Below are positions 23,792 through 53,166 of a DNA stretch of 64,000 nt, one piece after another. A program made the translations under genes and the position numbers. The DNA is from Naegleria gruberi (Eukaryota), in the NCBI GenBank assembly GCA_000004985.1, contig GG738916.1, one strand, 5' to 3'. The notes beneath the pieces were generated by a model that was not told the origin of the DNA, did no database searches, and saw nothing but the letters and a program-made list of their open reading frames with translations. Every line of letters begins with the position of its first letter. Position 1 is the stretch's first letter.

Positions 23792-23841
23792 NNNNNNNNN
23801 NNNNNNNNNNNNNNNNNNNNNNNNNNNNNNNNNNNNNNNNN
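23792..23841. other. Assembly gap (50 N).
   Basis: A run of n characters. Confidence 0.99.
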
Positions 23842-24157: not shown

Positions 24158-24179
24158 TTAGGAGAGAGCTCGAGATGAA

Positions 24180-27100: not shown

Positions 27101-29044
27101 AATATGTAATGGTATTAAGGCTACCAATGATAGTAATTCAACTTTAACCACCAATGAAACAGTGGTGTGTAGTGGAAATGGTCTTTGCATTCGTCCAGAC
27201 GAATGTTTATGTAATTCAAATTGGGCAGGTCAATATTGTGAAATTCCAATATGTGGAGATGTTTTGGCAACCAATGAAACAGCATGTAATGGCAATGGTA
27301 AATGTGTTCAACCAAATGAATGCATTTGCGACTCAAATTGGACAGGTCAATTATGTGAAACTCCAATATGTAGTGGTATAATTTCCACTAATATATCTGT
27401 TTGTAGTAGAAAGGGTGATTGTGTTGGTGCCAATCTTTGTATCTGTTTAACTGGTTGGGGAGGTGAAGATTGTTCCACACCAATTTGTAATAATATTCTA
27501 TCTACCAATGCTACTACCAATACTGATAGTAATGGAACTATAGTTAGCAATAATACATTGGTGTGTAGTGGACATGGTGAATGTACTAGTCCAAATCAAT
27601 GCAATTGTAATTTAAATTGGGGTGGTAAACAATGTGAAATACCTAAATGTCAAGGTATTTTGGCTAATAATGAGGCAGTTTGCAACTCTAGAGGATATTG
27701 TGTCAATGAAAATCAATGTCAATGTAATGAAATGTGGGGAGGTCAATTTTGTGAAATTCCATTTTGTAATGGAACTTTAGCCACTGATTCAAATGTGTGT
27801 AATTCATTGGGAGTATGTGTTGGTCCAAATCAATGTAAATGTCTCTCAGGTTGGGGTGGTAAACTATGTACAATACCATCATGTAATGGAATTCTTGCAT
27901 TTGATGAGAATGAAGTGTGTATCGCAAAGAGTAATGCATGTAGTGGAAATGGAAAGTGTATTGATCTTAATCGATGCAAATGTGACAAAGGTTGGACTGG
28001 ACCATTATGTTCAACACCAACATGTAATGGAACATCGGCCACTGAACTAACTGTTTGTAATGGTTTTGGAGTGTGTGTTGCACCAGATACGTGTAATTGT
28101 TATAGANNNNNNNNNNNNNNNNNNNNNNNNNNNNNNNNNNNNNNNNNNNNNNNNNNGCAACACCAACATGTAATGGAATTGTTGCCACAGATCCAAACGT
28201 GTGCAATTCAAGTGGTGTTTGTGTCGATTNTGATAAGTGTGAATGTTTTTCTGGTTATGGAGATGCATTCTGTGGCACTCCAACTTGTAATGGAATTCTA
28301 GCAACTCAAATTAATGTAGAAGTAGCTGTTTGTAGTGGTCGTGGAGTGTGTTTGGGACCAAATAAGTGTGTCTGTGAACCGAATTGGGGTGGTTTCATGT
28401 GTAATATTCCAAAATGCTACGATATTGAAGGAGACAAGAAAGGTGCTTGCTTTGGAAATGGTGATTGTATAGCAGTTGACTCATGTAAATGTTATCAAGG
28501 TTATATTGGTTATGATTGTCGTACTGTTGCTCCTGATAATAATTGTGGTGGATCAGGTTCAGGAACTACTTTTTGGGATGTTGTCTTGGAGGGTATGAAG
28601 ATAATTCGTACAGTGTTATCCGGTGCAGTGTCACTAGCTAGTTCAATTAGTGATGTTATTTCATCCTTAGGAAAAGGTTTGATTGACCTTCTTGGAGGAA
28701 TTGTTCCAAGCATTGCAAATATTTTCAGCTCCATTCCAAAATTAATAGAGAAAATTATTTCCTTTATTATCAGTACGGCAGAGAAGTTTATTAACTTTAT
28801 TCTCGGTTTATGGACAAAGATATTAGATTTTATATCATGGTTATTGACCTATCTTCCAAAAATATTTTCTGGAGTTACAACTCAACAAGTGGCAACAGTT
28901 TTGATTGTCATTGGTGTTGTCATACTTTTAATCATTATTTGTGTATTGTTGTATTTACTTAGTCCATATGTTACATTGGTACTTGAATTTTTCAAAATTA
29001 TTACCAGTTTTTGCTCAGCTCGTAAGAAGGCACTTAAGGAGTAG
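24180..29044 (+). CDS. NHL-repeat/EGF-repeat giant surface protein, copy 2, lying in tandem with copy 1. It is interrupted by assembly gaps (25364..26379 and 28107..28156, plus a single n at 28230), so the reading frame appears broken. The C-terminal Gly-rich hydrophobic domain and TM anchor lie at 28540..29044.
   Basis: The N-terminus starts at the second Met of the copy 1 sequence (MRSANNIV...). The EGF region 26380..28275 is near-identical to copy 3 in inverse orientation; the same alternate-frame ORFs appear on both. The tail after about 28275 diverges. Confidence 0.7.
25364..26379. other. Assembly gap (1016 N) inside NHL-EGF copy 2.
   Basis: A run of n characters. Confidence 0.99.
28107..28156. 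other. Assembly gap (50 N) inside NHL-EGF copy 2. There is an additional single n at 28230.
   Basis: A run of n characters. Confidence 0.99.
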
Positions 29045-29171
29045 TACAATTATAAACCATTTAGTTGTTGTTTCCAATAATCTCAAAAATATTAGATTTT
29101 TTCCCTTGGTCAACCAAAGTTTTCTTGATTAGTTTCAAAAGAAAAGAGACAATAATAAACAAATTCTCAAT

Positions 29172-31185
29172 TTATTTAGGTACCAACTTTTTCTTTTCAA
29201 TAGAATCGCCAGAACAACAACATCTTGCAACACAACAGCAACAAATTGTCAATGAAATGGTAATCAATACAAATAAAACTGATACACCAACAACAACAGC
29301 AATAACTCTGTTTGTGTTAAGTGAAGAAGTATCAAGGAAATCTATAAAGATGAAAGAATCCAAAAAGTCAACAATAACTTGCTTCACTTTGTAGTAAACA
29401 TATAAAAGTTCACCCCAGAAACTACTTGCTGGTGCTTTGTTATCAACTAATGTACCATTGGATGCAATGTAAAAATCATACTCAACTACGAGTGAGGAAG
29501 TATAGGTACCACAAGTGAGAGTCATCATTGCATAGCCTGTGAAATTTTTGGTTGGATAAATTGTAATTGAGTTTGTATCAGAATTTGACAAGGATACATA
29601 AGTTGGTGTAAATGAAGGTGTAGATGATTCAAAGAAACAACCTTGTTGAGTTTTAGATTTAACTACACAAGATGTTGATAAACAACTGACAAGAGTTGGT
29701 TGTGAATTGTCAGTTGTCAATATTGTCATGTTACCAACAATTTTCAATGAAACTGATGCTAATGAAACACCTTTAAATGAAATTGAAGAAAGAACTGTTG
29801 GATCAGTTGGTTCAACAGTAACTGGAATAAAAGATGCTCCATTACGTGTTTCACCTTTGAAAGAAACACGTTTAAGCATATTATCAGGCCAAGTATATGC
29901 TAATATTTGTGTATCTGCATCTCCTTTGATTAATTGTGGGTTAGAATCACCACCATCAGTATATCTCTCTATATAGATACAATTTGGTTCCTTGAAAAAA
30001 AGTTTGGTAGAAATGACTGGATTGGAGTTGATTGAATTTTCTTTGAAATTATAAATTTTAAAATTTCCAGTTATAGAACCACAAGTAGTTGATAAAGTAA
30101 GACTATTTGAAGTTTCAGTGGATTTCCAGCAAGAATTCCTTCAATATTGCTACCAATAATAATAGGTTCAGTTGAATCTATACCTAAATAACCAAATCCT
30201 AGAATATTTTCAGGCCTACTAATGGCATGTGAAATACATCCTTTGAAGCAATGATGGATGCTTGTAAATTCAAATCTGAATATTCGGCAAATTTGGCCAA
30301 GAAAGAAGCTCTACTTGCAGCATGGGCCTCTAAAATACGTCTAGTAATAGAGGCATTATCAAAAGAAGCTACAGTATAAGCAGGGGAACTTTCACAACCA
30401 GTTGAAAAGTGTACCATTGATTGAATTTCTGAGAGTTCAGGAAGTGTAACATCAAAATTACAACTACCTCTTGGTGATTGACAATTATATTTGATTTCAC
30501 TGTTTTTAATATTGCTGACCTTAATCCAACCAATCTTTGAAATATCAGAAACGTTAAAACCATTTACTACTGAAGAAGGTAGTAAGTAAAAATCTGATTT
30601 AGATGTTAAATCAATAACTGAATAATCTGCAACAAATGGAAGGGTAGTTGAATTTAAATCCATAATGAAATTTAAACCAGTGTAACCAATTGGAATTGAT
30701 GCTTGATTATTTACAACTGAAACTTGAGAAGAACTTCCTTGATATTTAACAGTAATAAAACCGCTATAGGTAGGAGGATCCAATTTACAAACTTTGAAAC
30801 GTCTAAAAGCTTCAAATGCCAAATTATAACAAGAAGTACTATAACCTGGGTCAGTGTTTGGAATACTAAAAGAAACGGTGTTCAAATAGTTATTACCTGT
30901 AAAATCAGGTGGAGAACAAACATTGCTTTTTGAGCAAGCAGAAGTATATCTTGGAATTGGATCATCTGTATAATAACAACTAGAAGATGATAATTTAACA
31001 ATAAAATCCATTCCAAGTGTAATATCAACAATGGAATTGTCATCTGTAATCTTGAAACAAACTTTGTCATTCAATGTTCGGGTATAACCAGTATCAACAG
31101 AATAAATACAACTGGTTGAATTATTGGCACCAAGGCATGACTTTTGTTGACCTTTAGAAAGTGCTATTGGAAGACACTGTTCATA
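29172..31185 (-). CDS. Large type I membrane protein, paralogue of 32620..34749. Its 5' end lies in the gap at 31186..31680 and there is an apparent 1-nt frame break near 30150. The C-terminal TM is followed by a CCCCVARCCCSGDS poly-Cys tail.
   Basis: The pieces 30199..31074 and 29172..29879 align colinearly with the N- and C-terminal halves of the 709-aa paralogue (CYNLAFEAFRRFKVCKL..., ...FIPVTVEP...TCGTYTSSL...). The intervening 29880..30198 also aligns, but in a shifted frame. Confidence 0.5.
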
Positions 31186-37800: not shown

Positions 37801-39244
37801 TCAAGATTCAGCATGTAATGGTCCTACACATGGTAAATGTGTAATCTTGCTGTTTGCGATTGTACAAGTGAATGGACAGGATCTCAATGTGAAATCCCTG
37901 TATGTAGAGTGGATGTGGTAGTTCAAATCAAGGATTATGCGTAGCTCCAAACACATGCGAATGTAAAGAAGGATGGACTGGAGCAGATTGCTCCATTGCT
38001 ATTTGCTTTGGAAACATTCAGATTTGGCATGTAGTGGTCCTACACATGGTAAATGTTTGAGTCCAGATGCGTGTAATTGCACAAGTGAATGGACAGGTCC
38101 TCAATGTGACAAACCAGTATGCATTAATGGATGTGGTAATTCAAATCAAGGATTGTGTGTAGCTCCAAATACATGTGAATGTAAAGAAGGATGGACTGGT
38201 ACAGACTGTTTAACCCCTATTTGTTTTGGAAATAGTCAAGATTCATCATGTAATGGTCCTACACATGGTAAATGTGTAGATCTTGCTGTTTGCGATTGTA
38301 CAAGTGAATGGACAGGATCTCAATGTGAAATCCCTGTATGTAAGAGTGGATGTGGTAGTTCAAATCAAGGATTATGCGTAGCTCCAAACACATGCGAATG
38401 TAAAGAAGGATGGACTGGAGCAGATTGCTCCATTGCTATTTGCTTTGGAAAAACTCAAGATTCAGCATGTAATGGTACAAATGGTAAATGTGTTAGTCCA
38501 GATGCCTGTAATTGCACAAGTGAATGGACAGGATCTGAATGTGAAAAACCAGTATGCATTAATGGATGTGGTAATTCAAATCAAGGATTGTGTGTAGGTC
38601 CAAACATTTGTAGATGTAAAGAAGGATGGACGGGTAAAAATTGTTTAACTCCAATCTGTTTTGGAAAGGTAAATAACGCAGCCTGTAATAGTATACTACA
38701 TGGACAATGTGTTTCTCCAAATGTTTGCCAATGCAATTCTGGTTGGATGGGACGTAATTGTACAATTCCTGTTTGTTTTGATGAATTTGGTGCTGTTACT
38801 GCATGTGGTTCTCCACAAGTGGTATGTGAATTGGGTTGGACAGGTATTGATTGTTCTGTTCCTGTTTGTTTTGATATTAATAATCCAGGTTGGGCAGGAG
38901 CAGATTGTACCACTCCTATTTGTTATGGAAAAATCAATCCAAGTGCTTGTAGTGGTTCCTCTCATGGAAAATGTATTGCTCCTAATTTTTGTAAATGTGA
39001 TCCAAAATGGATGGGAAAGGATTGTTCACAAACTGCATGCTTTGGAATTTCACAATTCGATAATAATGTATGTAATGGAAGAGGAAAGTGTATTGATTAT
39101 AATACGTGCCATTGTAATGATGGTTCTAGTGGCAACGCTTGTGAAAAACAAGATTTCTCATGGCAATATGTTATTGCCACTGCAATGATTTTATTGCCAA
39201 CAATTGTTGTCTACTACTTTTCAAAATCCGAGTATTTTAAATAA
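34803..39244 (+). CDS. Second NHL-repeat/EGF-repeat giant type I surface protein, a distant paralogue. It has a signal peptide, four or five NHL repeats, about 60 EGF repeats, a C-terminal TM (YVIATAMILLPTIVVYYF) and a short tail. Exon 1 is 34803..35412, a 42-nt intron lies at 35413..35454 (donor GTTAGTATTT), exon 2 starts at 35455. The frame is disrupted by single-nt deletions inside a near-identical internal tandem repeat (about 37650-38050).
   Basis: NHL motifs (LNSPLGVSMSKGGEIYIADKLNHRIRKI) are present. EGF units have the form CxCxxGWxGxDCSxPxC. The frame is restored in 37973..39244, which ends TAA after a TM segment. Confidence 0.6.
37600..38470 (+). repeat. Intragenic tandem array: two and a fraction copies of an about 435-bp unit (about 145 aa, four to five EGF repeats each) at about 95% identity. 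The first copy carries about four 1-nt deletions relative to the second.
   Basis: The unit anchor ggtcctacacatggtaaatgt recurs at about 37605, 37820, 38040 and 38260. Tgtaagagtggatgtggtagttc in the second copy reads tgtagagtggatgtggtagttc in the first. Confidence 0.7.
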
Positions 39245-43217: not shown

Positions 43218-44306
43218 ATGTTACCAGCAGAAAGAACGGATCGTTTCAATAAGAAGGAGGCTCAAAAGAAAAATGGAAATTTCTTGCAAATTCAAAGGAA
43301 TGAATTACGTATGGAAGAGTTAAGAAAACAAATTGAGGAGCTAAAGATCGAAAATTCATTACTATATGAACAAAGTATTGAATTGGCCAACACTCAAGAA
43401 ACATTAAAGAATACTAATGATGAGTACAAACGTGAAAATTCAAAATTAGAACAAGAAAACATTGAACAAAAGAGTGATTTGGCCAAAATTAAAGGACTAA
43501 CTAAATTCTTACCTCCTGAATTTACTGCAACTGATGGTTTTGAAGTTAGTCAACAAGTAACCACTACAAATGTTAAGAATGAGAATAGATCAAGATTGTG
43601 GTGTTTTTCACTTTTACAATTTATTACTTTAATGATTTGTGCAGCAACTTTGACACTTTATTGGATTAACGCTTCAAGATTATATACAGAACCTAACATT
43701 ATTAAGATGGTAACTGCTGAATTTGAGTGTCCCGCCAATAATTCTACTGTTAATTCAACAACAACTGATATTATTAGTTTCTATTCTACTACTAATTCAA
43801 CTAGTAATGATAGCACTACTGAACCAATTACAAAAAGAACAGAGGTTGCAACTATTGAAAGCGTTACAGGTTGGATCATGGTCTTGGATTTTTTTAGAAC
43901 TTACTTGATGATTTTGATTATTCCTTCTTCAATTATTTGGTACACTTACTATACAGAAGATTATGAAACCAAAGAATTGAAACACAAATCAAACAAGTGT
44001 AATTTTACTTGTCAAGCCTTTATATGTTCACTTGCATTTGTATTATTGTTAGGATGTTTAATTTTCTTTGGTTATGCTGAGAATACTCTTTCATGGCAAT
44101 GTCCAACAGTATCAAATCCATTGGTTATTTATCTTTCTATGGGAATGTTTTTATGCTCTCTTTTATCTATTATTTTGTACTTTATACAAACTTGTTGTCA
44201 CTCTAGACTATTTAAAGAAAAACCAATCAGAGATGGAACTTTTAAAACAGGATTATTGGTCATAAGAAATATTAACAAGTTGCATGGCATTACAAAAAAA
44301 AAATAA
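43218..44306 (+). CDS. Family-T tetraspan membrane protein with an N-terminal coiled-coil-like region.
   Basis: WINASRLYTEPNIIKM... and IIPSSIIWYTYYTEDYE... parallel 13636..14400 (WSNASRLQTDPYII..., AVPATFIWYSYFSIDLQE...). Confidence 0.55.
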   Translation: MLPAERTDRFNKKEAQKKNGNFLQIQRNELRMEELRKQIEELKIENSLLYEQSIELANTQETLKNTNDEYKRENSKLEQENIEQKSDLAKIKGLTKFLPPEFTATDGFEVSQQVTTTNVKNENRSRLWCFSLLQFITLMICAATLTLYWINASRLYTEPNIIKMVTAEFECPANNSTVNSTTTDIISFYSTTNSTSNDSTTEPITKRTEVATIESVTGWIMVLDFFRTYLMILIIPSSIIWYTYYTEDYETKELKHKSNKCNFTCQAFICSLAFVLLLGCLIFFGYAENTLSWQCPTVSNPLVIYLSMGMFLCSLLSIILYFIQTCCHSRLFKEKPIRDGTFKTGLLVIRNINKLHGITKKK

Positions 44307-44603
44307 ATATGCTATTTGTTTTTAATTCCAACTTTATTGTTCATGTTTTACCATCAAACATGTTTGAAATTGACGTTAATCTGGTGATGAGCCTGTTGTG
44401 TGTCATAATTATCGCACGATGAGACTACCCCTGTTGTGTTGCCAAAAGTTGTTCTGGTGATTCTGTTGAAAATAAAAGTCCTAAATTGAGAATTGGTTTA
44501 TTATCTCATGCAATAAAATCTATCTCTTTTGAAATAATAAAGACAAAGAAAACTTTGGTTGACCAAGAGAAAAAAATCTTGTTTTTGAGATTGTTTGAAA
44601 CAA

Positions 44604-47600
44604 CTACATGTTGTACTCCTTAAGAGCTTTTTCACTACTTGCTAATGCACTCGAAACACCTTTGACAAATTGAAGTGCAATTGTAATATATGGACTAAGG
44701 AAAGATAACAATACTATAATAATGATCAAAAGTAGTGCAACACCAATGATTACTAAAACTGTTACCACTTGTTGAAGCGTAATTCCAGAAAATATTTTTG
44801 GAAAATAAATCACTGCCCATTCTATAAATTCAACAAATGTTGTCCACAAATTGAGAATAAAGTTAATAAACTTCTCTGCATTGCTAATCAAAAAGTTCAG
44901 AATTTTCTCCATTAATTTTGGAATGGAGCTGAAAATATCTGCAATGTTTGGAATAACTCCTCCAAAAAGGTCAATAAAACCAGTTCCTAAGGATTCAATA
45001 ACATTACCAATTGAACTACCTATAGATGCTGCACCAGATGCCATATCACCAATTAAATCCCAACCTTCCACAAGAACATCCCAAAAAGAGGCACCTCTAC
45101 GTGAGTCACCACAATTCTTGTCAGGAACAACACTACTACAATCATAATCCATATAACCCTGATAACATTTACATGTATCAACTGCTATACAATCACCATG
45201 TCCAGAACATACTTCTTTCTTGTCTCCTGAAATATCGAAACATTTTGGAAAGCCACACATGAAACCACCCCAATTCGGTTGACAGATACACTTATTTGGT
45301 CCCAAACACAATCCACGACCACTACACACAGCTCCTTCTACATTAATGTGAGTGGATAAAATGCTATTACAACTTAAAGTGCCACAGAATGCATCTCCAT
45401 AACCAGAAAAACATTCACACTTATCAAAATCGACACAAACACCACTTGAATTGCACACGTTTGGATCTGTGGCAACAATTCCATTACATGTTGGTGTTGC
45501 ACATAATTTTCCACCCCATGAATTGCAACTACATTCATCATTCTCAATACAAATACCCCTCGAGTTACATACTGTTGGATCTGTGGCCAAAGTTCCATTA
45601 CATGTTGGAACGGTACAGAATTCACCTCCCCAATCTCTATAACAATTACACTTATCTGGTGCAACACACACTCCAAAACCATTACAAACAGTTAGTTCAG
45701 TGGCCGATGTTCCATTACATGTTGGTGTTGAACATAATGGTCCAGTCCAACCTTTCTCACATTTGCATCGATTAAGATCAATACACTTTCCATTTCCACT
45801 ACATGCATTACTCTTTGCGATACACACTTCATTCTCATCAAATGCAAGAATTCCATTACATGATGGTATTGTACATAGTTTACCACCCCAACCTGAGAGA
45901 CATTTACATTGATTTGGACCAACACATACTCCCAATGAATTACACACATTTGAATCAGTTGCTAAAGTTCCATTACAAAATGGAATTTCACAAAATTGAC
46001 CTCCCCACATTTCATTACATTGACATTGATTTTCATTGACACATTTTCCTCTAGAGTTGCAAACTGCCTCATTGTTAGCCAATATACCTTGACATTTAGG
46101 TATTTCACATTGTTTACCACCCCAATTTAAATTACAATTGCATTGATTTGGACTAGTACATTCACCATGTCCACTACACACCAATGTATTATTGCTAACT
46201 ATAGTTCCATTACTATCAGTATTGGTAGTAGCATTGGTAGATAGAATATTATTACAAATTGGTGTGGAACAATCTTCACCTCCCCAACCAGTTAAACAGA
46301 TACAAAGATTGGCACCAATACAATCACCCTTTCTACTACAAACAGATATATTAGTGGAAATTATACCACTACATATTGGAGTTTCACATAATTGATCTGT
46401 CCAATTTGAGTCGCAAATGCATTCATTTGGTTGAACACATTTACCATTGCCATTACATGCTGTTTCATTGGTTGCCAAAACATCTCCACATATTGGAATT
46501 TCACAATATTGACCTGCCCAATTTGAATTACATAAACATTCGTCTGGACGAATGCAAAGACCATTTCCACTACACACCACTGTTTCATTGGTGGTTAAAG
46601 TTGAATTACTATCATTGGTAGCCTTAATACCATTACATATTGGAATTTCACAAAATGGACCTGTCCAATTTGAATTACAAATACATTCATTGGGTTGAAA
46701 ACATTCTCCATTACCATTGCATACATAAGGATCAGTTGCCAGTGTAGAGTTGCATTTTGGAGATTCACAATATTGTCCACCCCATGTAGAATTGCACTCA
46801 CAAACATCTGGACCAACACATGCACCATTACCACTACACACAAATTCATAAATGGCCAAAGTTCCATTACAAATTGGAATTTCACAAAGTTCTCCTGACC
46901 AACTTGAATTACATTCACAAATATTTGGACTCACACATTGACCGTTTCCACTACAAACCAAAACATCAGTTGCACTCGTACCATTGCAAAGTGGAGTTTG
47001 ACAGAATTGACCAGTCCAATTACTATTACATAAACATTGGTCTGGATTAATACATATACCATTAGTGTTACAAACTGATTCATTTGTGGCTAAAGTTCCA
47101 TTACAGATTGGAATTTCACACAAATAACCTCCCCATGTTGAATTACATTCACAGGTGTCTGGACTGACACAAATACCATTACCACTACAAACTGATAAAT
47201 CTGTACCAGCTGTTCCATTACAAAGTGGAGTTTGACAGAATTGACCAGTCCAATTGGTATTACAAATACATTCATCTGGTTGAATACATTCACCATTTCC
47301 ATTACATACATAAGGATCAGTTGCCAGTGTAGAGTTACATTTTGGAGATTCACAAAATTCTCCACCATATGTCGAATTACACTCACAAATATTTGGGCTA
47401 ATACAGTTACCATGTCCTTCACAAACAGATATATTATTTGCCAATATTCCATTACAAAATGGAATTTCACAATACTGTCCACCCCATTCTGAAGTACAAT
47501 TACATATATCTGGTTGAATACATGTACCATTGCCATTACAAACCAAAGTATCAGTTGCCATTGTTCCATTACAAATTGGAATTTCACAAAATTGGCCTGT

Positions 47601-50600
47601 CCAATTGGAATTGCAAAAACATTCATCTGGATTAATACAAATACCGTTGCTGTTGCACACTGTGTCATTGGTAGCTAACGTTCCATTACAAACTGGGACT
47701 TGACAAAATTGTCCACCCCATTCTGATGTACAAACACATTCATCTGGTTGAATACATATTCCATTGCCATTACATACAGTTTCGTTGGTGGCTTCAGTAC
47801 CATTACATATTGGAATTTCACAAAATTGACCTGTCCAATTGTAATTGCAAAGACATTCGTCAGGTTGAATACATGCTCCATTGTTGTTACAAACAAAAGG
47901 ATCAGTTGCGAGTGTAGAGTTGCATTTTGGAATTTCACATAAATCACCTCCCCATGTTGAATTGCAGTTACAAATATTTGGATTAATACATTCACCATTA
48001 CCACTACAAACTGATAAATCTGTACCAGCTGTACCATTACAAAGTGGTGTTTCACACAATTTACCAGTCCAATTTGTATTACAAATGCATTCATCTGGTT
48101 GAACACATTCGCCATTACCATTACAAACAGAATAGTTGTTAGCTAAAGTTCCATTACAAATTGGAATTTCACAAAATTCTCCACTATATGTCGAATTACA
48201 CTGACAAAGATTTGGACCAACACATGCACCGTTACCGCTACATACAGATTCGTTAGTGGCTTCTGTTCCATTACAAATTGGAATTTCACAAAATTGCCCA
48301 GTCCAATTGGAATTACATAAACATTCATCTGGGCGAATGCAAAGACCATTTCCACTACACGCCACTGTTTCATTGGTGGCTAATGTCGCATTGCTATCAT
48401 TGGTAGCTTTAATACCTCCACAGATTGGAATTTCACAATAAGGACCTGTCCAATTTGAATTACAAAAACATTCATCTGGCTGAATACATTCTCCATTACC
48501 ATTACAAACAAAAGGATCAGTTGCATTTGTTCCATTACATACTGGAATTTCACAAAATTGACCAGTCCAATTCGAGTTACATTCACAAATATTTGGACTA
48601 ATACATTTACCATGTCCTGCACAAACAGATGTATCATTAGCAAGAGTATCATTACATATTGGAATTTCACAAAATTCTCCACTCCAAGTTGAATTACATT
48701 CACAAACATCTGGACTAATACAAATACCATTACCACTACATACTGTTGAGTTTGCATCCTCTAGGGTTACATTACAGAGAGGAAATTGACAAAATGGACC
48801 ATAATACCCTGATTGACAATCGCAAGTGTCCAGTGAAGTACATATTCCATGAGAAGTACAAACTGTAGAATTTGTACTTTCAATTGAATTACAAGTTGTC
48901 ATATTACAATAAGTTCCAAAGTATCCACTTGTACAAACACAATTATCACTTGAAATGCACAATCCATGAGAATTGCAAACAGTAGTTTCATTTCCTGAAA
49001 TGTTAAAGCAAGTTGGAATTTCACATTGATATCCTGAATAGCCATCATTACATACACATGTATCGTTTGCAACACATGTTCCGTTTTGATTATTACAAAC
49101 CATTGAATCATTTCCCAATATTGAAAAACAAATTGGAATTTCACAATATTGACCTGTAAATCCTGATTCACAATCACAAGTTTCTGGGCTAGTGCAATTA
49201 CCAACACCATTACAAACACTTGAACTATTTGAAAGTGTATTGTTACAAATAGAAAGCTCACAACACACTCCAGCATATCCCTGACAAATACAAGGATCAT
49301 TAGTATCAATCAGAGCAAATGATGTTAAATGGGATGTTTCACAAATAACAGTACTAGAATTCACCATTTTAGTTCTTACACCATCAGATTTCCATGTATT
49401 TTCAATCCTATCCAAATACATACATGTTAAATTGGATGATTTGGTTATGTTTTGTGAGTGTAATGGAATGATCAAAGTGATTGGCTTGTTCAATTGTTTT
49501 ACAATAACTTCTTTACCACTATCACTCAGTAAAGAAACAGAAACTATAGCACTTTTAACTTTAGGTGTTATCTTATCAATATAAATTGATGAAAATAGAA
49601 TTAATGAGCTATCACTGTTCAATCCACTTGTTGAAATCAAATCACTACTCAATGTGGAAGGAAGTGAAATTTGAATACCCATATTAGTATTCGAATAACT
49701 ATAAGAAACATAAATATTCTTCGAATTTAAATCACCCAATTGATTTGCAACTTGATAATTGTAGGATGTGACATTTGTTGAAACAGCTATTGAACAATAA
49801 GATCCAATCCAACCGTAATTGCAAACACAAGTTTCTGGACTAGTACAATTTCCAACACCATTACAAACCTTCTTACTTGTAGCAAGTGTACCATTACAAA
49901 TTGGTGTTTGACAATATTGACCTCCCCAAGTTGAATTACATTTACATTCATTAAAACCATTACAGATACCATTGCCATTACAAACTGATTTTGAATTGGA
50001 TCGTGTTCCATTGCATGTATTCACACAACTCATAGCTCCATTGAAATCTTGTGTAAATTGAAGAGTTGTGCCACATTCAATGATCTTTCTAATCCTGTTA
50101 TTGGATGTGTCTGCAATTAATATTTCATTATTATTTGGAGAAACAAAAACACCTTTAGGAGAATTAAGTCGACTCGCAATTGACAAACCACCATCACCAC
50201 CAAATGATCCATCGCTACTACTTCCAGCAATGGTTGTAATAGTTCCATTCACAAATATCTTTCTAATTCGATGATTCAATGTGTCAGCAATGTAAATTTC
50301 ACCACTCTGTGAAACATGGACGCCATATGGTGAATTCAATTGAGAGTTTATAGCCAAGCCACCATCACCACCAAATGATGCTCGACCAGTTCCTGCTACT
50401 GTTGTAATCAGTCCGTTAACAAATATCTTTCTAATTCTATGGTTCAATGTATCAGCAATATAAATTTCACCATTCTGAGAAATATGAACACCATTTGGAG
50501 AGTTCAATGGTGAAAGAACAGCAAATCCACCGTCACCACCAAATGATGCTCTACCAGTTCCAGCAATAGTTGAAATTACACCATAACTATTAATCTTTCT

Positions 50601-51227
50601 GATTCTATGGTTCAATGTGTCAGCAATGTAAATTTCACCATTCTGAGAAATAGAGAGACCATTTGGTGAATTTAATTTTGCTCTACTAGCTAAACCACCA
50701 TCACCACTAAAACCATCACAATCAGAATGTTCATTACAGTTTTGCTTTCCAGAAACAATGGTCACCAAATAACTTGACAGAGAAACGGAAAGAATTCTAT
50801 GATTTAACACATCTGTCATGTATAATTCATTTCTAAATAAAACAGCCATGGTTGGTTTAAACTTGTTACCTGTTTGCATATTAATTGGTAATGTGAAAAT
50901 TGTACCATTCATAAATATTTTTCTAATTCTTCCATTTTGTGTATCGACAATAAGTGTTTCAGTGTAATTATTATTGTTGAGAGGTGAAATACTTATTGAA
51001 TAGGAGGGAGAATTTAATTGGGCATTGATAGCCAAACCACCATCTCCTTCCATACCTGCTGCTGCCATTAATCCACTTCCTGCAATTGTTGAAATATATG
51101 ATAATTTAGTGGTGGAACTTGTAGTTGCTGCTGTTGTTGTTGTGGAAAAGATTGTCATCATCATCAACAAGAATAATAACAGGACAATGTTGTTTGCGCT
51201 TCTCATTTCATCCAGAGCTCTCTTCAT
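44604..51227 (-). CDS. NHL-repeat/EGF-repeat giant surface protein, copy 3. It is intact (2207 aa, no gaps) and shows the full architecture. The domains in order are: signal peptide; six to seven NHL repeats (aa about 45-385); two EGF repeats; an about 165-aa domain ending in a GPS/GAIN-like motif (aa about 480-645); about 45 tenascin-type EGF repeats rich in N-glycosylation sequons; an about 120-aa Gly-rich amphipathic domain; a TM anchor; and an about 30-aa tail.
   Basis: It is a continuous ORF on the minus strand. The signal peptide is MKRALDEMRSANNIVLLLFLLMMMTIF. The GPS-like motif is TCMYLDRIENTWKSDGV...STVICETSHLTSFALI. The C-terminal TM is VVTVLVIIGVALLLIIIIVLL. Confidence 0.8.
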   Translation of the reverse strand: MKRALDEMRSANNIVLLLFLLMMMTIFSTTTTAATTSSTTKLSYISTIAGSGLMAAAGMEGDGGLAINAQLNSPSYSISISPLNNNNYTETLIVDTQNGRIRKIFMNGTIFTLPINMQTGNKFKPTMAVLFRNELYMTDVLNHRILSVSLSSYLVTIVSGKQNCNEHSDCDGFSGDGGLASRAKLNSPNGLSISQNGEIYIADTLNHRIRKINSYGVISTIAGTGRASFGGDGGFAVLSPLNSPNGVHISQNGEIYIADTLNHRIRKIFVNGLITTVAGTGRASFGGDGGLAINSQLNSPYGVHVSQSGEIYIADTLNHRIRKIFVNGTITTIAGSSSDGSFGGDGGLSIASRLNSPKGVFVSPNNNEILIADTSNNRIRKIIECGTTLQFTQDFNGAMSCVNTCNGTRSNSKSVCNGNGICNGFNECKCNSTWGGQYCQTPICNGTLATSKKVCNGVGNCTSPETCVCNYGWIGSYCSIAVSTNVTSYNYQVANQLGDLNSKNIYVSYSYSNTNMGIQISLPSTLSSDLISTSGLNSDSSLILFSSIYIDKITPKVKSAIVSVSLLSDSGKEVIVKQLNKPITLIIPLHSQNITKSSNLTCMYLDRIENTWKSDGVRTKMVNSSTVICETSHLTSFALIDTNDPCICQGYAGVCCELSICNNTLSNSSSVCNGVGNCTSPETCDCESGFTGQYCEIPICFSILGNDSMVCNNQNGTCVANDTCVCNDGYSGYQCEIPTCFNISGNETTVCNSHGLCISSDNCVCTSGYFGTYCNMTTCNSIESTNSTVCTSHGICTSLDTCDCQSGYYGPFCQFPLCNVTLEDANSTVCSGNGICISPDVCECNSTWSGEFCEIPICNDTLANDTSVCAGHGKCISPNICECNSNWTGQFCEIPVCNGTNATDPFVCNGNGECIQPDECFCNSNWTGPYCEIPICGGIKATNDSNATLATNETVACSGNGLCIRPDECLCNSNWTGQFCEIPICNGTEATNESVCSGNGACVGPNLCQCNSTYSGEFCEIPICNGTLANNYSVCNGNGECVQPDECICNTNWTGKLCETPLCNGTAGTDLSVCSGNGECINPNICNCNSTWGGDLCEIPKCNSTLATDPFVCNNNGACIQPDECLCNYNWTGQFCEIPICNGTEATNETVCNGNGICIQPDECVCTSEWGGQFCQVPVCNGTLATNDTVCNSNGICINPDECFCNSNWTGQFCEIPICNGTMATDTLVCNGNGTCIQPDICNCTSEWGGQYCEIPFCNGILANNISVCEGHGNCISPNICECNSTYGGEFCESPKCNSTLATDPYVCNGNGECIQPDECICNTNWTGQFCQTPLCNGTAGTDLSVCSGNGICVSPDTCECNSTWGGYLCEIPICNGTLATNESVCNTNGICINPDQCLCNSNWTGQFCQTPLCNGTSATDVLVCSGNGQCVSPNICECNSSWSGELCEIPICNGTLAIYEFVCSGNGACVGPDVCECNSTWGGQYCESPKCNSTLATDPYVCNGNGECFQPNECICNSNWTGPFCEIPICNGIKATNDSNSTLTTNETVVCSGNGLCIRPDECLCNSNWAGQYCEIPICGDVLATNETACNGNGKCVQPNECICDSNWTDQLCETPICSGIISTNISVCSRKGDCIGANLCICLTGWGGEDCSTPICNNILSTNATTNTDSNGTIVSNNTLVCSGHGECTSPNQCNCNLNWGGKQCEIPKCQGILANNEAVCNSRGKCVNENQCQCNEMWGGQFCEIPFCNGTLATDSNVCNSLGVCVGPNQCKCLSGWGGKLCTIPSCNGILAFDENEVCIAKSNACSGNGKCIDLNRCKCEKGWTGPLCSTPTCNGTSATELTVCNGFGVCVAPDKCNCYRDWGGEFCTVPTCNGTLATDPTVCNSRGICIENDECSCNSWGGKLCATPTCNGIVATDPNVCNSSGVCVDFDKCECFSGYGDAFCGTLSCNSILSTHINVEGAVCSGRGLCLGPNKCICQPNWGGFMCGFPKCFDISGDKKEVCSGHGDCIAVDTCKCYQGYMDYDCSSVVPDKNCGDSRRGASFWDVLVEGWDLIGDMASGAASIGSSIGNVIESLGTGFIDLFGGVIPNIADIFSSIPKLMEKILNFLISNAEKFINFILNLWTTFVEFIEWAVIYFPKIFSGITLQQVVTVLVIIGVALLLIIIIVLLSFLSPYITIALQFVKGVSSALASSEKALKEYNM

Positions 51228-51447
51228 TTTTTAACAGTCGGTTTTGGTAAACTCTTTCAAAAGTCATCGTTGTAATATTTTTTACATTTTTGTACGTTTT
51301 TGTGTATTTTGCCGAATCAAAAGAAAAATGGGGAAAATGGAGTTAAGGTTCAAAAAAAATAAGAGAGCATGTTGACAACTTGTTGTCCATCATTCTGTTG
51401 TTTTTCTAGAGAAAGTACCCACTATCAATCCATCGATAATAACACAA
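51228..51447. promoter_or_regulatory. Shared divergent intergenic region for the copy C gene pair (duplicate of 22366..22507). It contains the conserved element gcatgttgacaacttgttgtccatcattctg at 51367..51397.
   Basis: The sequence is identical to the copy A spacer. The conserved element is also retained at 2648..2678 upstream of the unpaired copy B. Confidence 0.4.
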
Positions 51448-53166
51448 TTGCCGATGAAATATTCTAAAATATTGCAAGTGAGTCAAGATATATTTTGCAA
51501 TGTAATTATTCCCTATTTTAATTCACATACTTTGATTGCTTTTGCTGGAGTTTGTTCCGAGTGGAGAAGAATTGTCAAAGAAAGTGATACTAGAGGAATC
51601 AAGTGTGTAAATGTAAAACATAAATCAGCAAGATACAGATTTGAATCATTAAATGATGAGGAGGAAATGAGTGGATTAATGAAAGGTGACCTCTTGCAAA
51701 TATTCTCACAAATGGAAATAAGAACTTTTCCAGAATTTGAGGAAACTATTTTTCTTAACAGATCTTTTTTTAAAAAGTTATTCAATTCAAAAAAATTGGA
51801 ATTATTGACATTACAAAATACTAATATTATTACAATTATTATTCCTGCTAAAGATATTTCACCAATTACAACACTGAAATTAATAAGTGTTCAAATGGAA
51901 GTTGAGAATTTAAGAACTATATGCACTAATTTACTAAATTTAACAGATCTAACATTAATTGATAATGGACTTGATTATAAGGCAACACTTGTATTGACCA
52001 AATCAAAGTTGACTCGTCTAACACATCTTACACTTCGTAATCGAATTGGAGATGAAGGTGTTAATCAAATATTGACTCAACCAGGAAATATTAGAACTTT
52101 GAAATATATTAACTTTGTTGCAATACCTCCAGAATCATCTCAAAAAGACAATATTTCATACATAGCACCAATTAATAGTTCAATTTTACCAAATCTTGAA
52201 TATTTTTCAATAGATTTGGAGATGTCGACAAAATCAATTATGAATGTGTTGAATAGTGGTAATTCATGGAGAGAATTGACCTTTCTTCACTCACATTTAA
52301 ATAGTGAATGTGTGAAACAAATTGGAAAAATTCATACACTCCAAAAACTTTGTTTTCAATCAAAATTGGAAGTAGATTTACCTTACAGATGTTTATTACC
52401 TCTTCAAAATAATCTCACTCATCTAGAAATTGGTCCTGTTGATAATAATACATTCTCTGAATTGAGTGAGGGTAACTTTCTTAATTTGAAATATTTATGC
52501 ATTCTAAATACAAAACAAGGAAATGAAATAGATGAATATGTAATACGAAAATTCTGTGAAAAAGTTCAAAATCTAACCTATTTAGAGTTAAGAAAAGTAG
52601 TAATGAAAAGTGGATGTATGAATCACATATCCCAACTTTCAAAAATAACTGATTTACGAATTATTCAAACACATATTGATAGTGAAGGAATGAAATATTT
52701 ATCAAGAATGAGTAACATGACAACATTATATTTAGGAAGTGAAATTACATTTGATGGTATTTCATATTTATGCAAGGGAAATTTACTAAATTTACACACT
52801 TTAAAGTTTACAAGAGTTCCTTCAGGCAAGTTCAAATATGACTCAAAGTTTACATCAAGTTTAGCTCATTCAAATTTTCCAAAATTAAGATATTTGAGTT
52901 TTTATTATGAATTTGATATTTATGCAACTGATATGTTACATTCTGGACCATCTCTGAAAAATTTGATACATTTAGAACTTTATTGGGTAGATTTAACAAT
53001 TACACCTATTTTAGTACCTATAGTCAATAATCTGGCACCTAAATATCTGACTGGAATTGGAGGTTTTGCAGCCCTTAAAGCAAAAGTCATATCACAATTA
53101 AGACAACCAACAAAAATCAACTATTTGATTGCATATACAGATATACGAATTGATGAATTTATTTAA
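51448..53166 (+). CDS. F-box-like/LRR protein, copy C. The start is probably MKYSKILQ at 51454.
   Basis: It is near-identical to copies A and B. It shares the C-terminus GIGGFAALKAKVISQLRQPTKINYLIAYTDIRIDEFI with copy A. Confidence 0.65.
   Translation: MPMKYSKILQVSQDIFCNVIIPYFNSHTLIAFAGVCSEWRRIVKESDTRGIKCVNVKHKSARYRFESLNDEEEMSGLMKGDLLQIFSQMEIRTFPEFEETIFLNRSFFKKLFNSKKLELLTLQNTNIITIIIPAKDISPITTLKLISVQMEVENLRTICTNLLNLTDLTLIDNGLDYKATLVLTKSKLTRLTHLTLRNRIGDEGVNQILTQPGNIRTLKYINFVAIPPESSQKDNISYIAPINSSILPNLEYFSIDLEMSTKSIMNVLNSGNSWRELTFLHSHLNSECVKQIGKIHTLQKLCFQSKLEVDLPYRCLLPLQNNLTHLEIGPVDNNTFSELSEGNFLNLKYLCILNTKQGNEIDEYVIRKFCEKVQNLTYLELRKVVMKSGCMNHISQLSKITDLRIIQTHIDSEGMKYLSRMSNMTTLYLGSEITFDGISYLCKGNLLNLHTLKFTRVPSGKFKYDSKFTSSLAHSNFPKLRYLSFYYEFDIYATDMLHSGPSLKNLIHLELYWVDLTITPILVPIVNNLAPKYLTGIGGFAALKAKVISQLRQPTKINYLIAYTDIRIDEFI

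What the first reader, a model, noticed from the sequence alone, without database searches (positions are those of the whole stretch)
44604..45140. Gly-rich amphipathic juxtamembrane domain that is the fast-evolving part of the NHL-EGF proteins
The last about 180 aa of copy 3 are GDSRRGASFWDVLVEGWDLIGDMASGAASIGSSIGNVIESLGTGFIDLFGGVIPNIADIFSSIPKLMEKILNFLISNAEKFINFILNLWTTFVEFIEWAVIYFPKIFSGITLQQVVTVLVIIGVALLLIIIIVLLSFLSPYITIALQF.... Copy 2 (28540..29044) has the equivalent region. Both consist of glycine-zipper-like small-residue repeats (GxxxG/SxxxG), several amphipathic helices, then the TM and a partly hydrophobic tail. This module is only about 65% identical between copies whose upstream 6 kb are more than 95% identical. 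It is therefore either exempt from the homogenisation or under diversifying selection. Such a membrane-interacting variable C-terminal module is reminiscent of polymorphic effector and receptor tails, but it has no obvious counterpart in characterised domain families.
Basis: seen in the sequence. Interest (0 to 1): 0.55.

Follow-up and report, generated by a model that had tools for sequence, protein, structure and literature searches.

The report
Orphan amphipathic membrane anchor, Naegleria NHL-EGF proteins
The tail of two giant Naegleria gruberi surface proteins is a real ~170-residue helical membrane anchor with no known relatives, and it looks fast-evolving mainly because it lies just outside a stretch of DNA that the two gene copies have recently copied from each other, not because selection favours change.

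Summary
Copy 3 (44607-45113, minus) and copy 2 (28544-29041, plus) end in a colinear 166-169-aa module, 60% identical in protein and 77% in DNA. There is a sharp identity step.

The step is not at the module. It lies at 28279|28280 = 45378|45377, inside the EGF array and 88 codons upstream. Synonymous divergence jumps from 0.02 to about 0.27 there. It stays at that level through the last EGF repeats and the module, and the 3' flank is similarly diverged. This is the end of a gene-conversion or recent-duplication tract.

Inside the module dN/dS is about 1 (CI 0.65-1.6; 0.66 by YN00). Yet there are no internal indels or stops, second codon positions are spared, and hydropathy is kept far better than under neutral simulation. 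The constraint is on hydrophobic pattern, not on residue identity. Diversifying selection is not shown.

The module has about 100 extracellular residues with one phase-coherent 3.6-3.67-residue (11/18-lag) amphipathic period. An aromatic-rich membrane-seeking stretch, one TM helix and a short tail follow.

No homologue was found in Pfam, PDB, 1.84 billion protein representatives or metagenomes. Only weak, periodicity-driven hits to phage tape-measure proteins appeared. It is a lineage-restricted anchor or stalk of modest interest.

The parts
44607..45113 (-). Copy 3 C-terminal module, 169 aa (CGDSRRG...KEYNM); stop codon at 44604-44606.
   Evidence: Translation; alignment with copy 2. No Pfam or PDB family.
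44961..45086 (-). Module residues 10-51: Gly/Ser/Ala-rich amphipathic helix A. It ends at the conserved GG-x-x-P hinge (residues 51-55).
   Evidence: AF2 predicts a helix at 10-51, at low pLDDT. Small-xxx-small motifs cluster at residues 22-45. The hendecad register is shown.
44793..44945 (-). Module residues 57-107: amphipathic helix B (IADIFSSIPKLMEKILNFLISNAEKFINFIL...). Its last third, residues 81-104 (44802-44873), is an aromatic-rich, membrane-seeking pre-TM stretch, LWTTFVEFIEWAVIYFP.
   Evidence: AF2 predicts a helix at 57-107. Hydrophobic moment reaches 0.67. For 19-residue windows starting at residues 75-99, the Wimley-White interfacial sum is -2.6 to -4.3 kcal/mol in copy 3 and -1.8 to -6.7 in copy 2.
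44667..44777 (-). Module residues 113-149: single transmembrane helix (core V116-L139) with a conserved LSPY motif and a hydrophobic extension.
   Evidence: Kyte-Doolittle 19-residue mean up to 3.56. WW octanol sum -13 to -14 kcal/mol.
44607..44666 (-). Short, presumed cytoplasmic tail (KGVSSALASSEKALKEYNM) with the conserved KALKE. It is the least conserved part of the module (35% identity over residues 141-160).
   Evidence: The last 22 residues, which span this tail, carry net charge +1 in copy 3 and +3 in copy 2.
28544..29041 (+). Copy 2 C-terminal module, 166 aa, colinear with copy 3 and without internal gaps; stop codon at 29042-29044.
45114..45377 (-). Copy 3: last ~2.3 EGF repeats (88 codons). 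They lie on the diverged side of the boundary but outside the module.
   Evidence: aa identity 73%, dS 0.256, omega 0.56. First differences are at 45377, 45376 and 45373.
28280..28543 (+). Copy 2: the matching diverged EGF block. The conversion-tract boundary is at 28279|28280 and lies inside one contig (the gap ends at 28156).
45378..47002 (-). Copy 3 EGF array that is 98.8-100% identical to copy 2 26740-28279: the homogenised tract adjoining the boundary.
   Evidence: 16 differences in 1367 nt, then 0 in 123 nt. dS 0.021, dN 0.009 over 455 codons.
44420..44603 (-). 3' flank of copy 3, homologous to 29045-~29240 of copy 2. Identity is ~75-85% with many indels.
   Evidence: Sliding-window identity; pairwise alignment.

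Best explanation
The segment is the membrane anchor of a type I giant surface protein of Naegleria gruberi. The protein runs: signal peptide, NHL propeller, GPS-containing domain, ~36 teneurin-type EGF repeats, then this module.

The module is all-helical.
- About 100 extracellular residues keep one continuous amphipathic register with 11/18-residue (hendecad-type) periodicity, punctuated by conserved Gly/Pro hinges.
- The last ~30 of these residues are aromatic-rich and membrane-seeking. I infer that they lie in the outer-leaflet interface.
- I infer that the Gly/Ser/Ala-rich distal part packs helix against helix, either within one molecule or between molecules.
- One TM helix and a ~20-residue cytoplasmic tail follow.

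Function depends on hydrophobic pattern, not on specific residues. I/L/V/F/M exchanges (first-codon-position changes in NTN codons) are therefore nearly neutral, and dN approaches dS.

The low identity between copies is mainly historical. The paralogues are old (dS about 0.27). Their 5' parts, and the upstream LRR gene shared with copy 1, have been homogenised by gene conversion or re-duplication. That tract ends at 28279|28280 = 45378|45377, 88 codons before the module. The module, the last EGF repeats and the 3' flank keep the original divergence.

Shown here: the boundary, the dS step, the hydropathy-only constraint, the periodicity, the TM segment and the orphan status. Inferred: the topology, the in-plane pre-TM helix and the self-association.
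For: Organism:
- Three window ORFs match N. gruberi proteins EFC37622.1, EFC37659.1 and EFC37660.1 exactly, and a fourth matches EFC37662.1.

Architecture:
- Pfam finds NHL, TEN_NHL and 36 EGF_Teneurin stretches, plus GPS in the middle domain.

Boundary and age:
- Sliding-window identity is 98-100% and then falls to 67-90%.
- The exact first differences are listed.
- dS is 0.021 upstream against 0.256 in the EGF block after the boundary and 0.275 in the module.
- The 3' flank is ~75-85% identical with many indels, while the coding block has none internally.
- Identity among the three N-terminal copies is mosaic: copy 1 equals copy 3 in the promoter, and copy 1 equals copy 2 from about 23070 to 23670.
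- The block 20527-23791 is 98% identical to 53166-49944.

Constraint:
- Differences by codon position are 49/27/39.
- BLOSUM sum is 528 against 409 +/- 27 under neutral simulation.
- Hydropathy correlation is 0.897 against 0.654 +/- 0.052; 0 of 5000 simulations reach it.
- The probability of no stop codon under neutrality is 0.016.

Structure:
- Fourier power at 3.6 residues is 204-255 against 9 +/- 9 for shuffles. Power at 3.5 is absent. Lag-11 autocorrelation is 0.47-0.58 and lag-18 is 0.38-0.43.
- Hendecad positions 1, 4, 7, 8 and 11 are hydrophobic in both copies.
- AF2 gives three long helices, 10-51, 57-107 and 113-167.
- Kyte-Doolittle and Wimley-White profiles support the TM and the pre-TM stretch.

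Contrast:
- A third EGF-repeat gene in the window ends in a plain TM without this module, so the module is an add-on specific to the NHL-EGF paralogues.
Against: - Only two sequences exist, so site-wise selection cannot be tested. omega of about 1 with an upper bound of 1.6 does not exclude positive selection at a subset of sites.
- The AF2 model has low confidence (pLDDT 58, pTM 0.38). Tertiary arrangement, oligomeric state and in-plane versus bundled geometry are therefore inferred.
- On the WW octanol scale the pre-TM helix scores -4 to -8 kcal/mol, so a second membrane-inserted segment (a hairpin) is not excluded.
- Net charge of the extracellular part is not conserved (-6 against +1).
- Copy 2 is interrupted by assembly gaps. 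The near-identical tract adjoins gaps, so some of the homogeneity could reflect assembly of a repeat family.
- Even the window's own protein is absent from the searched protein collections. The lack of homologues is therefore weaker evidence for lineage restriction than it looks.
Confidence: 0.6

Rival explanations
1. The module is a polymorphic recognition or effector tail under diversifying selection. On this view its low identity is driven by positive selection for new specificities.
For: - omega of about 1.0 is higher than the 0.56 of the adjacent EGF block at the same dS.
- The nucleotide identity of the module (77%) is no higher than that of the aligned non-coding flank.
- First codon positions changed more often than third positions, 49 against 39.
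Against: - omega is not above 1 (CI 0.65-1.6; 0.66 by YN00).
- Replacements are overwhelmingly hydropathy-conserving (0 of 5000 neutral simulations reach the observed value).
- The 1st-position excess is what I/L/V/F exchange in NTN codons would produce.
- The identity step is synonymous as well, and lies 88 codons upstream in the EGF repeats.
- The tails are colinear homologues, not cassettes.
- Most of the varying surface is predicted to be buried in membrane or in helix packing, not exposed.
Confidence: 0.07
2. The module is a membrane-active device rather than a passive anchor. Either the pre-TM helix (residues ~81-104) and the TM form an inserted helical hairpin or re-entrant pair, or the amphipathic helices insert into an apposed membrane in a fusogenic or pore-forming manner. 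The proposed analogues are the hydrophobic regions of phage tape-measure proteins and viral MPER/fusion segments.
For: - WW octanol sums are below zero (-4 to -8 kcal/mol) for residues 75-105 in both copies.
- Weak hits go repeatedly and almost only to tail tape-measure and other phage tail proteins (E 2e-4 to 9e-4 across 1.84e9 proteins; PHROGs E 1e-4 to 1e-2).
- Forward scores of 36-38 bits exceed reversed (6-21 bits) and shuffled (<=4 bits) controls.
- Hydrophobic regions of tape-measure proteins have been proposed as membrane-spanning (PMC5099701).
Against: - The pre-TM helix carries 2 charged residues on a clear polar face and has a Kyte-Doolittle 19-residue mean of at most 1.3, which is typical of interfacial rather than spanning helices.
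- The tape-measure hits are borderline. They are summed over 4-8 repeat stretches with bias corrections of 21-69 bits, and a reversed tape-measure protein still scores 21 bits. Shared 11/18-residue periodicity (PMC5099701) explains much of the score.
- The same paper concluded that a membrane-insertion role for these regions is doubtful.
Confidence: 0.12
3. The ~100 extracellular residues form a free-standing parallel hendecad coiled coil (dimer or trimer). It would stand ~15 nm off the membrane and oligomerise the EGF rods, with no lipid contact apart from the TM helix.
For: - One phase-coherent period of 3.6-3.67 residues runs over 100 residues, with maxima at lags 11 and 18 and no power at 3.5.
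- Hydrophobic a/d/e/h-like positions are conserved between the copies.
- Tape-measure proteins share the periodicity; from general knowledge, they form long helical bundles.
Against: - Five to six of 11 positions are hydrophobic, and the polar face is mostly Gly/Ser/Asn with few charges. That is unusually greasy for a soluble coiled coil.
- Conserved Pro55, Pro65 and Pro105 and the GG hinge break the helix.
- The pre-TM third has strongly favourable interfacial partitioning energy.
- AF2 gives low confidence.
Confidence: 0.15
4. The pattern is an artefact. Either copy 2 is a decaying pseudogene, or the near-identity upstream results from mis-assembly of a repeat family. On this view the 'boundary' says nothing about biology.
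For: - Copy 2 is broken by three N runs and changes frame across the 50-N gap.
- omega is about 1 in the module.
- The identical tract is bordered by gaps.
Against: - The boundary lies inside a single contig, 123 nt after the gap.
- The frame change coincides with an arbitrary-length N run.
- The 254 diverged codons contain no stop and no internal indel (for the 166-codon module alone, the probability of no stop under neutrality is 0.016), whereas indels begin right after the stop codon.
- Hydropathy is conserved far beyond neutral expectation.
Confidence: 0.05

Closest known systems
Hydrophobic and 11/18-residue repeat regions of phage tail tape-measure proteins (e.g. TP901-1 TMP, PMC5099701)
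   Same: - All-helical, Gly/Ser/Ile/Leu-rich, with 11- and 18-residue periodicity of hydrophobic and aromatic residues.
- Helix-start motifs of the type [LI]P-x-[IL]-[IL] (SSIPKLMEKI against SAIPKIISGM).
- These are the only proteins retrieved from 1.84e9 representatives and from PHROGs.
   Different: - The scores are borderline and partly due to periodicity.
- This is a eukaryotic type I membrane protein with one copy of the segment next to a TM helix. It is not a phage tail gene and does not have a repeat array hundreds of residues long.
- There is no evidence of common descent.
Membrane-proximal external regions (aromatic-rich pre-TM helices) of class I viral fusion glycoproteins
   Same: A Trp/Phe/Tyr-rich amphipathic stretch lies directly before a single TM helix, with favourable Wimley-White interfacial energy. 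It is preceded by long helical segments. The comparison rests on general knowledge of MPERs.
   Different: There is no sequence or fold relationship, no heptad (3.5-residue) repeats, no fusion peptide or cleavage site nearby, and the ectodomain is an EGF rod.
11-mer-repeat lipid-surface amphipathic helices (apolipoproteins, alpha-synuclein, perilipins)
   Same: Hendecad periodicity giving a straight hydrophobic stripe, with Pro punctuation.
   Different: The polar face is Gly/Ser/Asn/Thr rather than Lys/Glu-rich. Net charge is not conserved (-6 against +1). There was no sequence match. The segment is tethered to a TM helix on the extracellular side.
Teneurin-type NHL + EGF surface proteins (the host protein)
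   Same: The host protein matches Pfam TEN_NHL, EGF_Teneurin and EGF_TEN strongly.
   Different: Teneurins are type II proteins with an N-terminal TM and the order EGF, then NHL, then YD shell. Here the order is NHL, GPS, EGF, then a C-terminal TM (type I), and no YD/Rhs shell is present. The module under study has no equivalent in teneurins.
C-terminal polymorphic toxin or effector cassettes (Rhs/CdiA type)
   Same: A conserved long N-terminal part is followed by a more divergent C-terminus after a sharp identity break.
   Different: The tails are homologous and colinear (60% identity, no internal gaps) and are not unrelated cassettes. The break lies within the EGF repeats and is matched by a synonymous-site step. 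No toxin or immunity features were found.

Membership tests
Any curated protein domain family (Pfam-A) or solved structure | A significant profile match over the module. | tested here: not met
   Pfam at E<=1 finds only the EGF tail residues and no hit in the module. The PDB profile search gives a best E of 0.64. Foldseek of the low-confidence model against PDB gives a best E of 5.6.
Phage tail tape-measure protein | Significant sequence homology that is not explained by composition or periodicity. | tested here: inconclusive
   Three hits at E 2e-4 to 9e-4, with 4-8 stretches each and best single stretches of 17-20 bits. Reversed sequences score 6-21 bits and shuffled ones <=4. PHROGs tape-measure families match at E 1e-4 to 1e-2.
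Phage tail tape-measure protein | Encoded in a phage tail gene cluster, as a long (600-3000 aa) protein without a signal peptide or EGF ectodomain. | tested here: not met
   The host is a Naegleria gruberi nuclear gene encoding an NHL-EGF type I protein. The neighbours are F-box/LRR and CRT-like genes.
Phage tail tape-measure protein | 11/18-residue periodicity of hydrophobic and aromatic residues (PMC5099701). | tested here: met
   Lag-11 autocorrelation is 0.47-0.58 and lag-18 is 0.38-0.43; 0 of 2000 shuffles reach these values.
Glycine zipper (GxxxGxxxG) membrane motif | Consecutive GxxxG repeats conserved between homologues. | tested here: not met
   Copy 3 has one strict GxxxG (GSSIG, residues 32-36), and copy 2 has ASSIS at that place. 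Only looser small-xxx-small motifs recur, at residues 22-45.
Polymorphic toxin / effector C-terminal cassette | Non-homologous C-terminal domains swapped at a boundary that coincides with the domain start. | tested here: not met
   The tails align without internal gaps at 60% identity. The boundary is 88 codons upstream, at the junction between two EGF repeats.
Sequence under diversifying selection | dN/dS significantly above 1. | tested here: not met
   NG86 gives 1.01 (bootstrap 0.65-1.60), LWL85 1.04 and YN00 0.66. A site-wise test is not possible with two sequences.
Gene-conversion / concerted-evolution tract boundary | An abrupt step in synonymous and non-coding divergence, with mosaic identity among paralogues. 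| tested here: met
   dS rises from 0.021 to 0.26-0.27. The step occurs within 1 nt of 28280. The flank is diverged. The three N-termini show mosaic identity.
Single-pass type I membrane anchor | An N-terminal signal peptide, one hydrophobic span of 20 or more residues near the C-terminus, and a short polar tail. | tested here: met
   The N-terminus is MKRALDEMRSANNIVLLLFLLMMMTIF. The TM core is residues 116-139, with a Kyte-Doolittle mean up to 3.56. The tail is 19-21 residues with net positive charge. Topology itself was not tested experimentally.
GPI-anchor signal | The C-terminal hydrophobic stretch ends at or near the C-terminus, with no polar tail. | tested here: not met
   About 19-21 mostly polar or charged residues follow the hydrophobic span in both copies.
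Heptad (left-handed) coiled coil | Hydrophobic periodicity of 3.5 residues. | tested here: not met
   Power at 3.5 is 0.4-0.7 against a shuffle mean of 9. The peak is at 3.6-3.67.
11-mer lipid-binding amphipathic helices (apolipoprotein/synuclein/perilipin class) | Hendecad periodicity together with a charged (Lys/Glu) polar face. | tested here: inconclusive
   The periodicity is met. The polar face is mostly Gly/Ser/Asn/Thr, and net charge is not conserved.

The most novel reading that the evidence does not exclude
The module is a previously undescribed eukaryotic membrane-active or self-assembling hendecad device. On this reading, the ~100-residue amphipathic segment plus the TM helix clusters the ~100-nm EGF rods, or inserts into an apposed (prey or partner) membrane. 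It would work together with the upstream GPS autoproteolysis site. Its rapid change in residue identity under hydropathy-only constraint would tune paralogue-specific self-association, so that the converted, near-identical ectodomains are sorted into distinct complexes by their unconverted anchors.
Probability: 0.1. Interest if true: 0.6.

Novelty: new variant of a known kind. Interest (0 to 1): 0.3.

Why it matters
As it stands this is a modest result. It documents an orphan juxtamembrane module in a heterolobosean surface-protein family. It is also a clean example of how a gene-conversion boundary, combined with hydropathy-only constraint, can mimic a 'fast-evolving domain'. dN/dS of about 1 arises here without positive selection, because I/L/V/F exchanges are first-position changes.

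If the anchors do confer paralogue-specific assembly or membrane activity, they would explain why conversion stops short of them. That would also give a handle on how Naegleria organises giant adhesin-like proteins at its surface.

The GPS motif, found far from any membrane in the same protein, may be the more interesting lead for specialists in adhesion receptors.

Tried and rejected
1. Word-index homology search with the module found nothing at E<=10.
2. A search with the first 660 aa was swamped by bacterial NHL proteins and gave no orthologue. The one N. gruberi hit, P0048, ends in a Ser/Thr stalk plus a hydrophobic end and lacks the module.
3. A search with the middle domain found nothing.
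4. The exhaustive profile search returned only 3 borderline tape-measure proteins.
5. Metagenome scans by protein pattern and by a degenerate DNA pattern for FSSIPKLxEKI gave chance matches only, as checked by tblastn.
6. Exact-sequence look-ups of the copy-3 protein, tried from both possible start codons, found no record. Neighbouring ORFs identified the organism instead. Contig look-ups for three other window proteins also failed.
7. AF2 with the 2-sequence alignment gave pLDDT 58. Foldseek against PDB was uninformative, as expected. I ran no further search on this model.
8. GC3 shows no GC-biased-conversion signature: 0.15 in the converted tract against 0.23 in the unconverted block.
9. Literature searches for Naegleria NHL/EGF or GAIN proteins found nothing relevant.
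10. My first guess that the organism was a dictyostelid was rejected.
11. Considered and rejected: a GPI signal, a heptad coiled coil, a conserved glycine zipper and a toxin cassette (see the membership tests).
Full report
**Context**

The window is AT-rich (GC about 0.31) and contains scaffold gaps. Four ORFs are exact matches to Naegleria gruberi proteins on a 245-kb scaffold. They are 43218-44306 = EFC37622.1, 14532-15983 = EFC37659.1, 17702-19195 = EFC37660.1 and 29172-29879 = EFC37662.1. Neighbouring ORFs encode F-box/LRR and CRT-like proteins.

ORF 44604-51227(-) encodes a 2207-aa protein, 'copy 3'. It has an N-terminal hydrophobic signal-like sequence and an NHL/TEN_NHL propeller. Two EGF repeats and a ~170-aa middle domain follow, then about 34 more teneurin-type EGF repeats. 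The segment under study comes last.

Copy 2 (24180-29044, +) is the same gene type, interrupted by N runs. Copy 1 (22508-23791) is an N-terminal fragment that runs into a gap.

**Check of the observation**

The quoted peptide is correct. The module is 169 aa in copy 3 (44607-45113) and 166 aa in copy 2 (28544-29041). The two align without internal gaps at 60% aa identity and 77% nt identity (115 differences in 498 nt). tblastn finds no third copy in the window.

A 90-nt sliding comparison shows 98-100% identity from 26740 to 28279, then an abrupt fall to 67-90% with a mean of 82%. The first differences are at 28280, 28281 and 28284, which correspond to 45377, 45376 and 45373. They follow 123 identical bases, and before the 50-N gap there are only 16 differences in 1367 nt. 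The boundary lies inside one contig.

First, only about 3 kb of copy 2 is assembled upstream, so '6 kb' cannot be checked. Second, the 'glycine zipper' is not conserved: copy 3 has one strict GxxxG and copy 2 does not keep it.

**Why the tail is divergent**

The step is a step in neutral divergence. Over the 455 codons upstream, dS is 0.021 and dN is 0.009. In the 88 EGF codons just after the boundary, dS is 0.256. In the module, dS is 0.275.

The 3' flank stays alignable for about 190 nt at roughly 75-85% identity, but with many indels.

The boundary is 88 codons upstream of the module, at the junction between two EGF repeats (...AFCGT|PTCNG).

The three N-terminal copies show mosaic identity. 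Copy 1 equals copy 3 through the promoter and the divergently transcribed LRR gene: 20527-23791 is 98% identical to 53166-49944. Copy 1 equals copy 2 from about 23070 to 23670.

This is the signature of concerted evolution, meaning gene conversion or re-duplication, whose tract stops short of the 3' end. The module is therefore not singled out. It shares its age with the last EGF repeats and the flank.

**Selection inside the module**

omega is 1.01 by NG86 (bootstrap 0.65-1.60), 1.04 by LWL85 and 0.66 by YN00. The adjacent EGF block has omega 0.56. The number of amino-acid changes is close to the neutral expectation: identity is 0.60 against 0.56 +/- 0.02.

The kind of change is not neutral, however.
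- Differences by codon position are 49/27/39.
- 45% of replacements have a positive BLOSUM62 score, against 26% in simulation.
- Hydropathy correlation is 0.90 against 0.65 +/- 0.05 in simulation.
- Mean |dKD| is 1.7 against 3.0.
- For each of these last three measures, none of the 5000 simulations was as conservative as observed.
- The chance of escaping stop codons under neutrality is 0.016.
- No indel occurs in the coding block, while indels start right after the stop codon.

My reading is that hydrophobic pattern is under purifying selection and residue identity is nearly free. About 40% of residues are I/L/V/F/M, encoded by NTN codons. First-position changes within that codon set keep the residue hydrophobic. 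This inflates dN without any positive selection. Diversifying selection is not shown, though it cannot be excluded with only two sequences.

**Anatomy**

Hydropathy of residues 10-109 carries one phase-coherent periodicity at 3.6-3.67 residues. The power is 204 in copy 3 and 255 in copy 2, against 9 +/- 9 for shuffles. There is nothing at 3.5. The strongest autocorrelations are at lags 11, 7, 18 and 22.

Written in rows of 11, positions 1, 4, 7, 8 and 11 are hydrophobic in both copies, and positions 2, 6 and 9 are polar. Conserved breaks are G51-G52-x-x-P55, P65 and P105-K-I-F-S-G.

AF2 with two sequences gives pLDDT 58 and three long helices, at 10-51, 57-107 and 113-167. Only the secondary structure of this model is usable.

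Wimley-White sums are near zero for windows covering roughly residues 10-75. For windows starting at residues 75-99 they are clearly favourable in both copies (interfacial -2 to -7 kcal/mol, octanol -1 to -8). They reach -13 to -14 (octanol) for the TM core at residues 116-139.

A conserved LSPY motif and a short tail ending in KALKE follow. That region holds the least conserved stretch of the module (35% identity over residues 141-160).

With the N-terminal signal sequence this gives a type I topology, with the amphipathic 100 residues outside the cell. This topology is inferred.

The 19-21 polar residues after the hydrophobic span argue against a GPI signal.

A third EGF-repeat gene in the window (ending at 39244) goes straight from its last EGF into a plain TM. 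The module is therefore an addition specific to the NHL-EGF paralogues.

**Relatives**

None were found.
- Pfam: no hit.
- PDB sequences: best E 0.64.
- Word-index search of 5.8e9 proteins: none.
- Exhaustive profile search of 1.84e9 representatives: three proteins at E 2e-4 to 9e-4. All are phage tape-measure-like proteins with LPxII-type 11-mer repeats.
- PHROGs: many weak tape-measure and tail families at E 1e-4 to 1e-2.
- Two metagenome scans: chance matches only.

Controls show that the tape-measure scores of 36-38 bits are sums over several stretches of 17-20 bits. The reversed proteins still score 6-21 bits and shuffled ones 4 bits or less. Tape-measure proteins are known to carry 11/18-residue periodic repeats and hydrophobic regions (PMC5099701). 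I therefore read this as convergence of helical periodicity and composition, not as homology.

One caveat matters here. The copy-3 protein itself is absent from the searched collections. The null result shows that the module is not a widespread domain. It does not prove that the module is species-specific.

**Mechanism: my committed reading**

The module is the anchor and basal stalk of a very long EGF rod.
- The aromatic-rich pre-TM third lies in the outer-leaflet interface.
- The Gly/Ser/Ala-rich helix A and helix B pack against each other or between molecules.
- The TM helix and a short tail fix the protein in the membrane.

My confidence is about 0.6 for the overall account. It is high for the evolutionary part and moderate to low for the geometry.

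Rivals:
- An inserted hairpin or membrane-active device (0.12).
- A free-standing hendecad coiled coil (0.15).
- Diversifying selection on a recognition tail (0.07).
- An assembly or pseudogene artefact (0.05).

**Comparison with known systems and novelty**

The module works like a juxtamembrane amphipathic or MPER-type anchor, with tape-measure-like hendecad periodicity. It is not a member of any tested family (see the membership table). I rate it a new variant of a known kind, with interest about 0.3.

The most novel reading not excluded is that the unconverted anchors give near-identical ectodomains paralogue-specific assembly or membrane activity (probability about 0.1).

**Also seen**

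The middle domain matches Pfam GPS above the gathering threshold when scanned alone (30.6 bits against 22.5; E 5e-7). It also aligns to the GAIN domain of ADGRG3 (7qu8, E 0.024), with the motif CETSHL|TSFALID. It lies about 1550 residues and about 34 EGF repeats away from the TM helix. From general knowledge, the GPS of adhesion GPCRs and polycystins is juxtamembrane, so this placement is unusual and deserves its own follow-up.

Noticed in passing
window ~49250-49790 (-), copy 3 residues ~480-660: The middle domain carries a GPS motif. Scanned alone, it hits Pfam PF01825 at 30.6 bits (cut-off 22.5), E 5e-7. It also aligns to the GAIN domain of ADGRG3, 7qu8, at E 0.024. The motif is ...TVICETSHL|TSFALID. 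It was not listed when the whole protein was scanned. It lies ~1550 aa and ~34 EGF repeats upstream of the TM helix, not next to the membrane as in adhesion GPCRs and PKD1.
   Followed up: partly
window 20527-23791 (+) vs 49944-53166 (-): An inverted segmental duplication at 98% identity. It covers an LRR_14-type gene (20527-22365 and 51448-53166), the divergent promoter and the NHL N-terminus. The homology ends exactly at the stop-codon end of the LRR ORFs.
   Followed up: partly
window 22508-23791 (+): Copy 1 is only an N-terminal NHL fragment that runs into the 50-N gap at 23792-23841. Copy 2 starts ~370 nt later, with an unrelated upstream region (28-45% identity). So this is either a tandem pair whose first member is unassembled or a truncated gene.
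   Followed up: partly
window 22500-25363 vs 50046-51230: Identity among the three N-termini is mosaic. Copy 1 equals copy 3 upstream, copy 1 equals copy 2 (100%) from ~23070 to ~23670, and one 100-nt window is only 86-87% identical to copy 3. This is typical of repeated short conversion tracts.
   Followed up: partly
window 26380-26740 (+): Just after the 1016-N gap, copy 2 matches copy 3 better in a register shifted by 237 nt, i.e. two EGF repeats (26380-26935 against 47596-47041, 90.5%), than colinearly (60-78%). This points to a difference in repeat number or arrangement between the copies.
   Followed up: no
window 34803-39244 (+): Another large EGF-repeat gene (ORFs 34803-35417, 35544-37727 and 37973-39244). 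It has no NHL head visible in these ORFs. Its C-terminus goes directly from the last EGF into a plain TM helix and a short tail. It has higher GC (0.40) and strong GC skew.
   Followed up: partly
window 29104-29124 (+) and 44548-44568 (-): A 21-nt block (TCTTGGTCAACCAAAGTTTTC; 20 of 21 identical) is conserved ~60 nt (copy 2) and ~35 nt (copy 3) downstream of the stop codons, inside otherwise indel-rich 3' flanks. It may be a 3'-end or UTR element.
   Followed up: no
window 7234-7352 (-) and 5460-5530 (+): A dispersed 5S rRNA gene (105 bits) and a tRNA-Asp(GTC) lie ~1.7 kb apart.
   Followed up: no
whole window: The NHL-EGF proteins of this locus are not present as exact sequences in the public protein collections that were queried, although the flanking genes are (EFC37622, EFC37659, EFC37660, EFC37662). 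The exhaustive search gave no self-hit either. These genes are probably unannotated, split or differently modelled in the N. gruberi annotation.
   Followed up: partly
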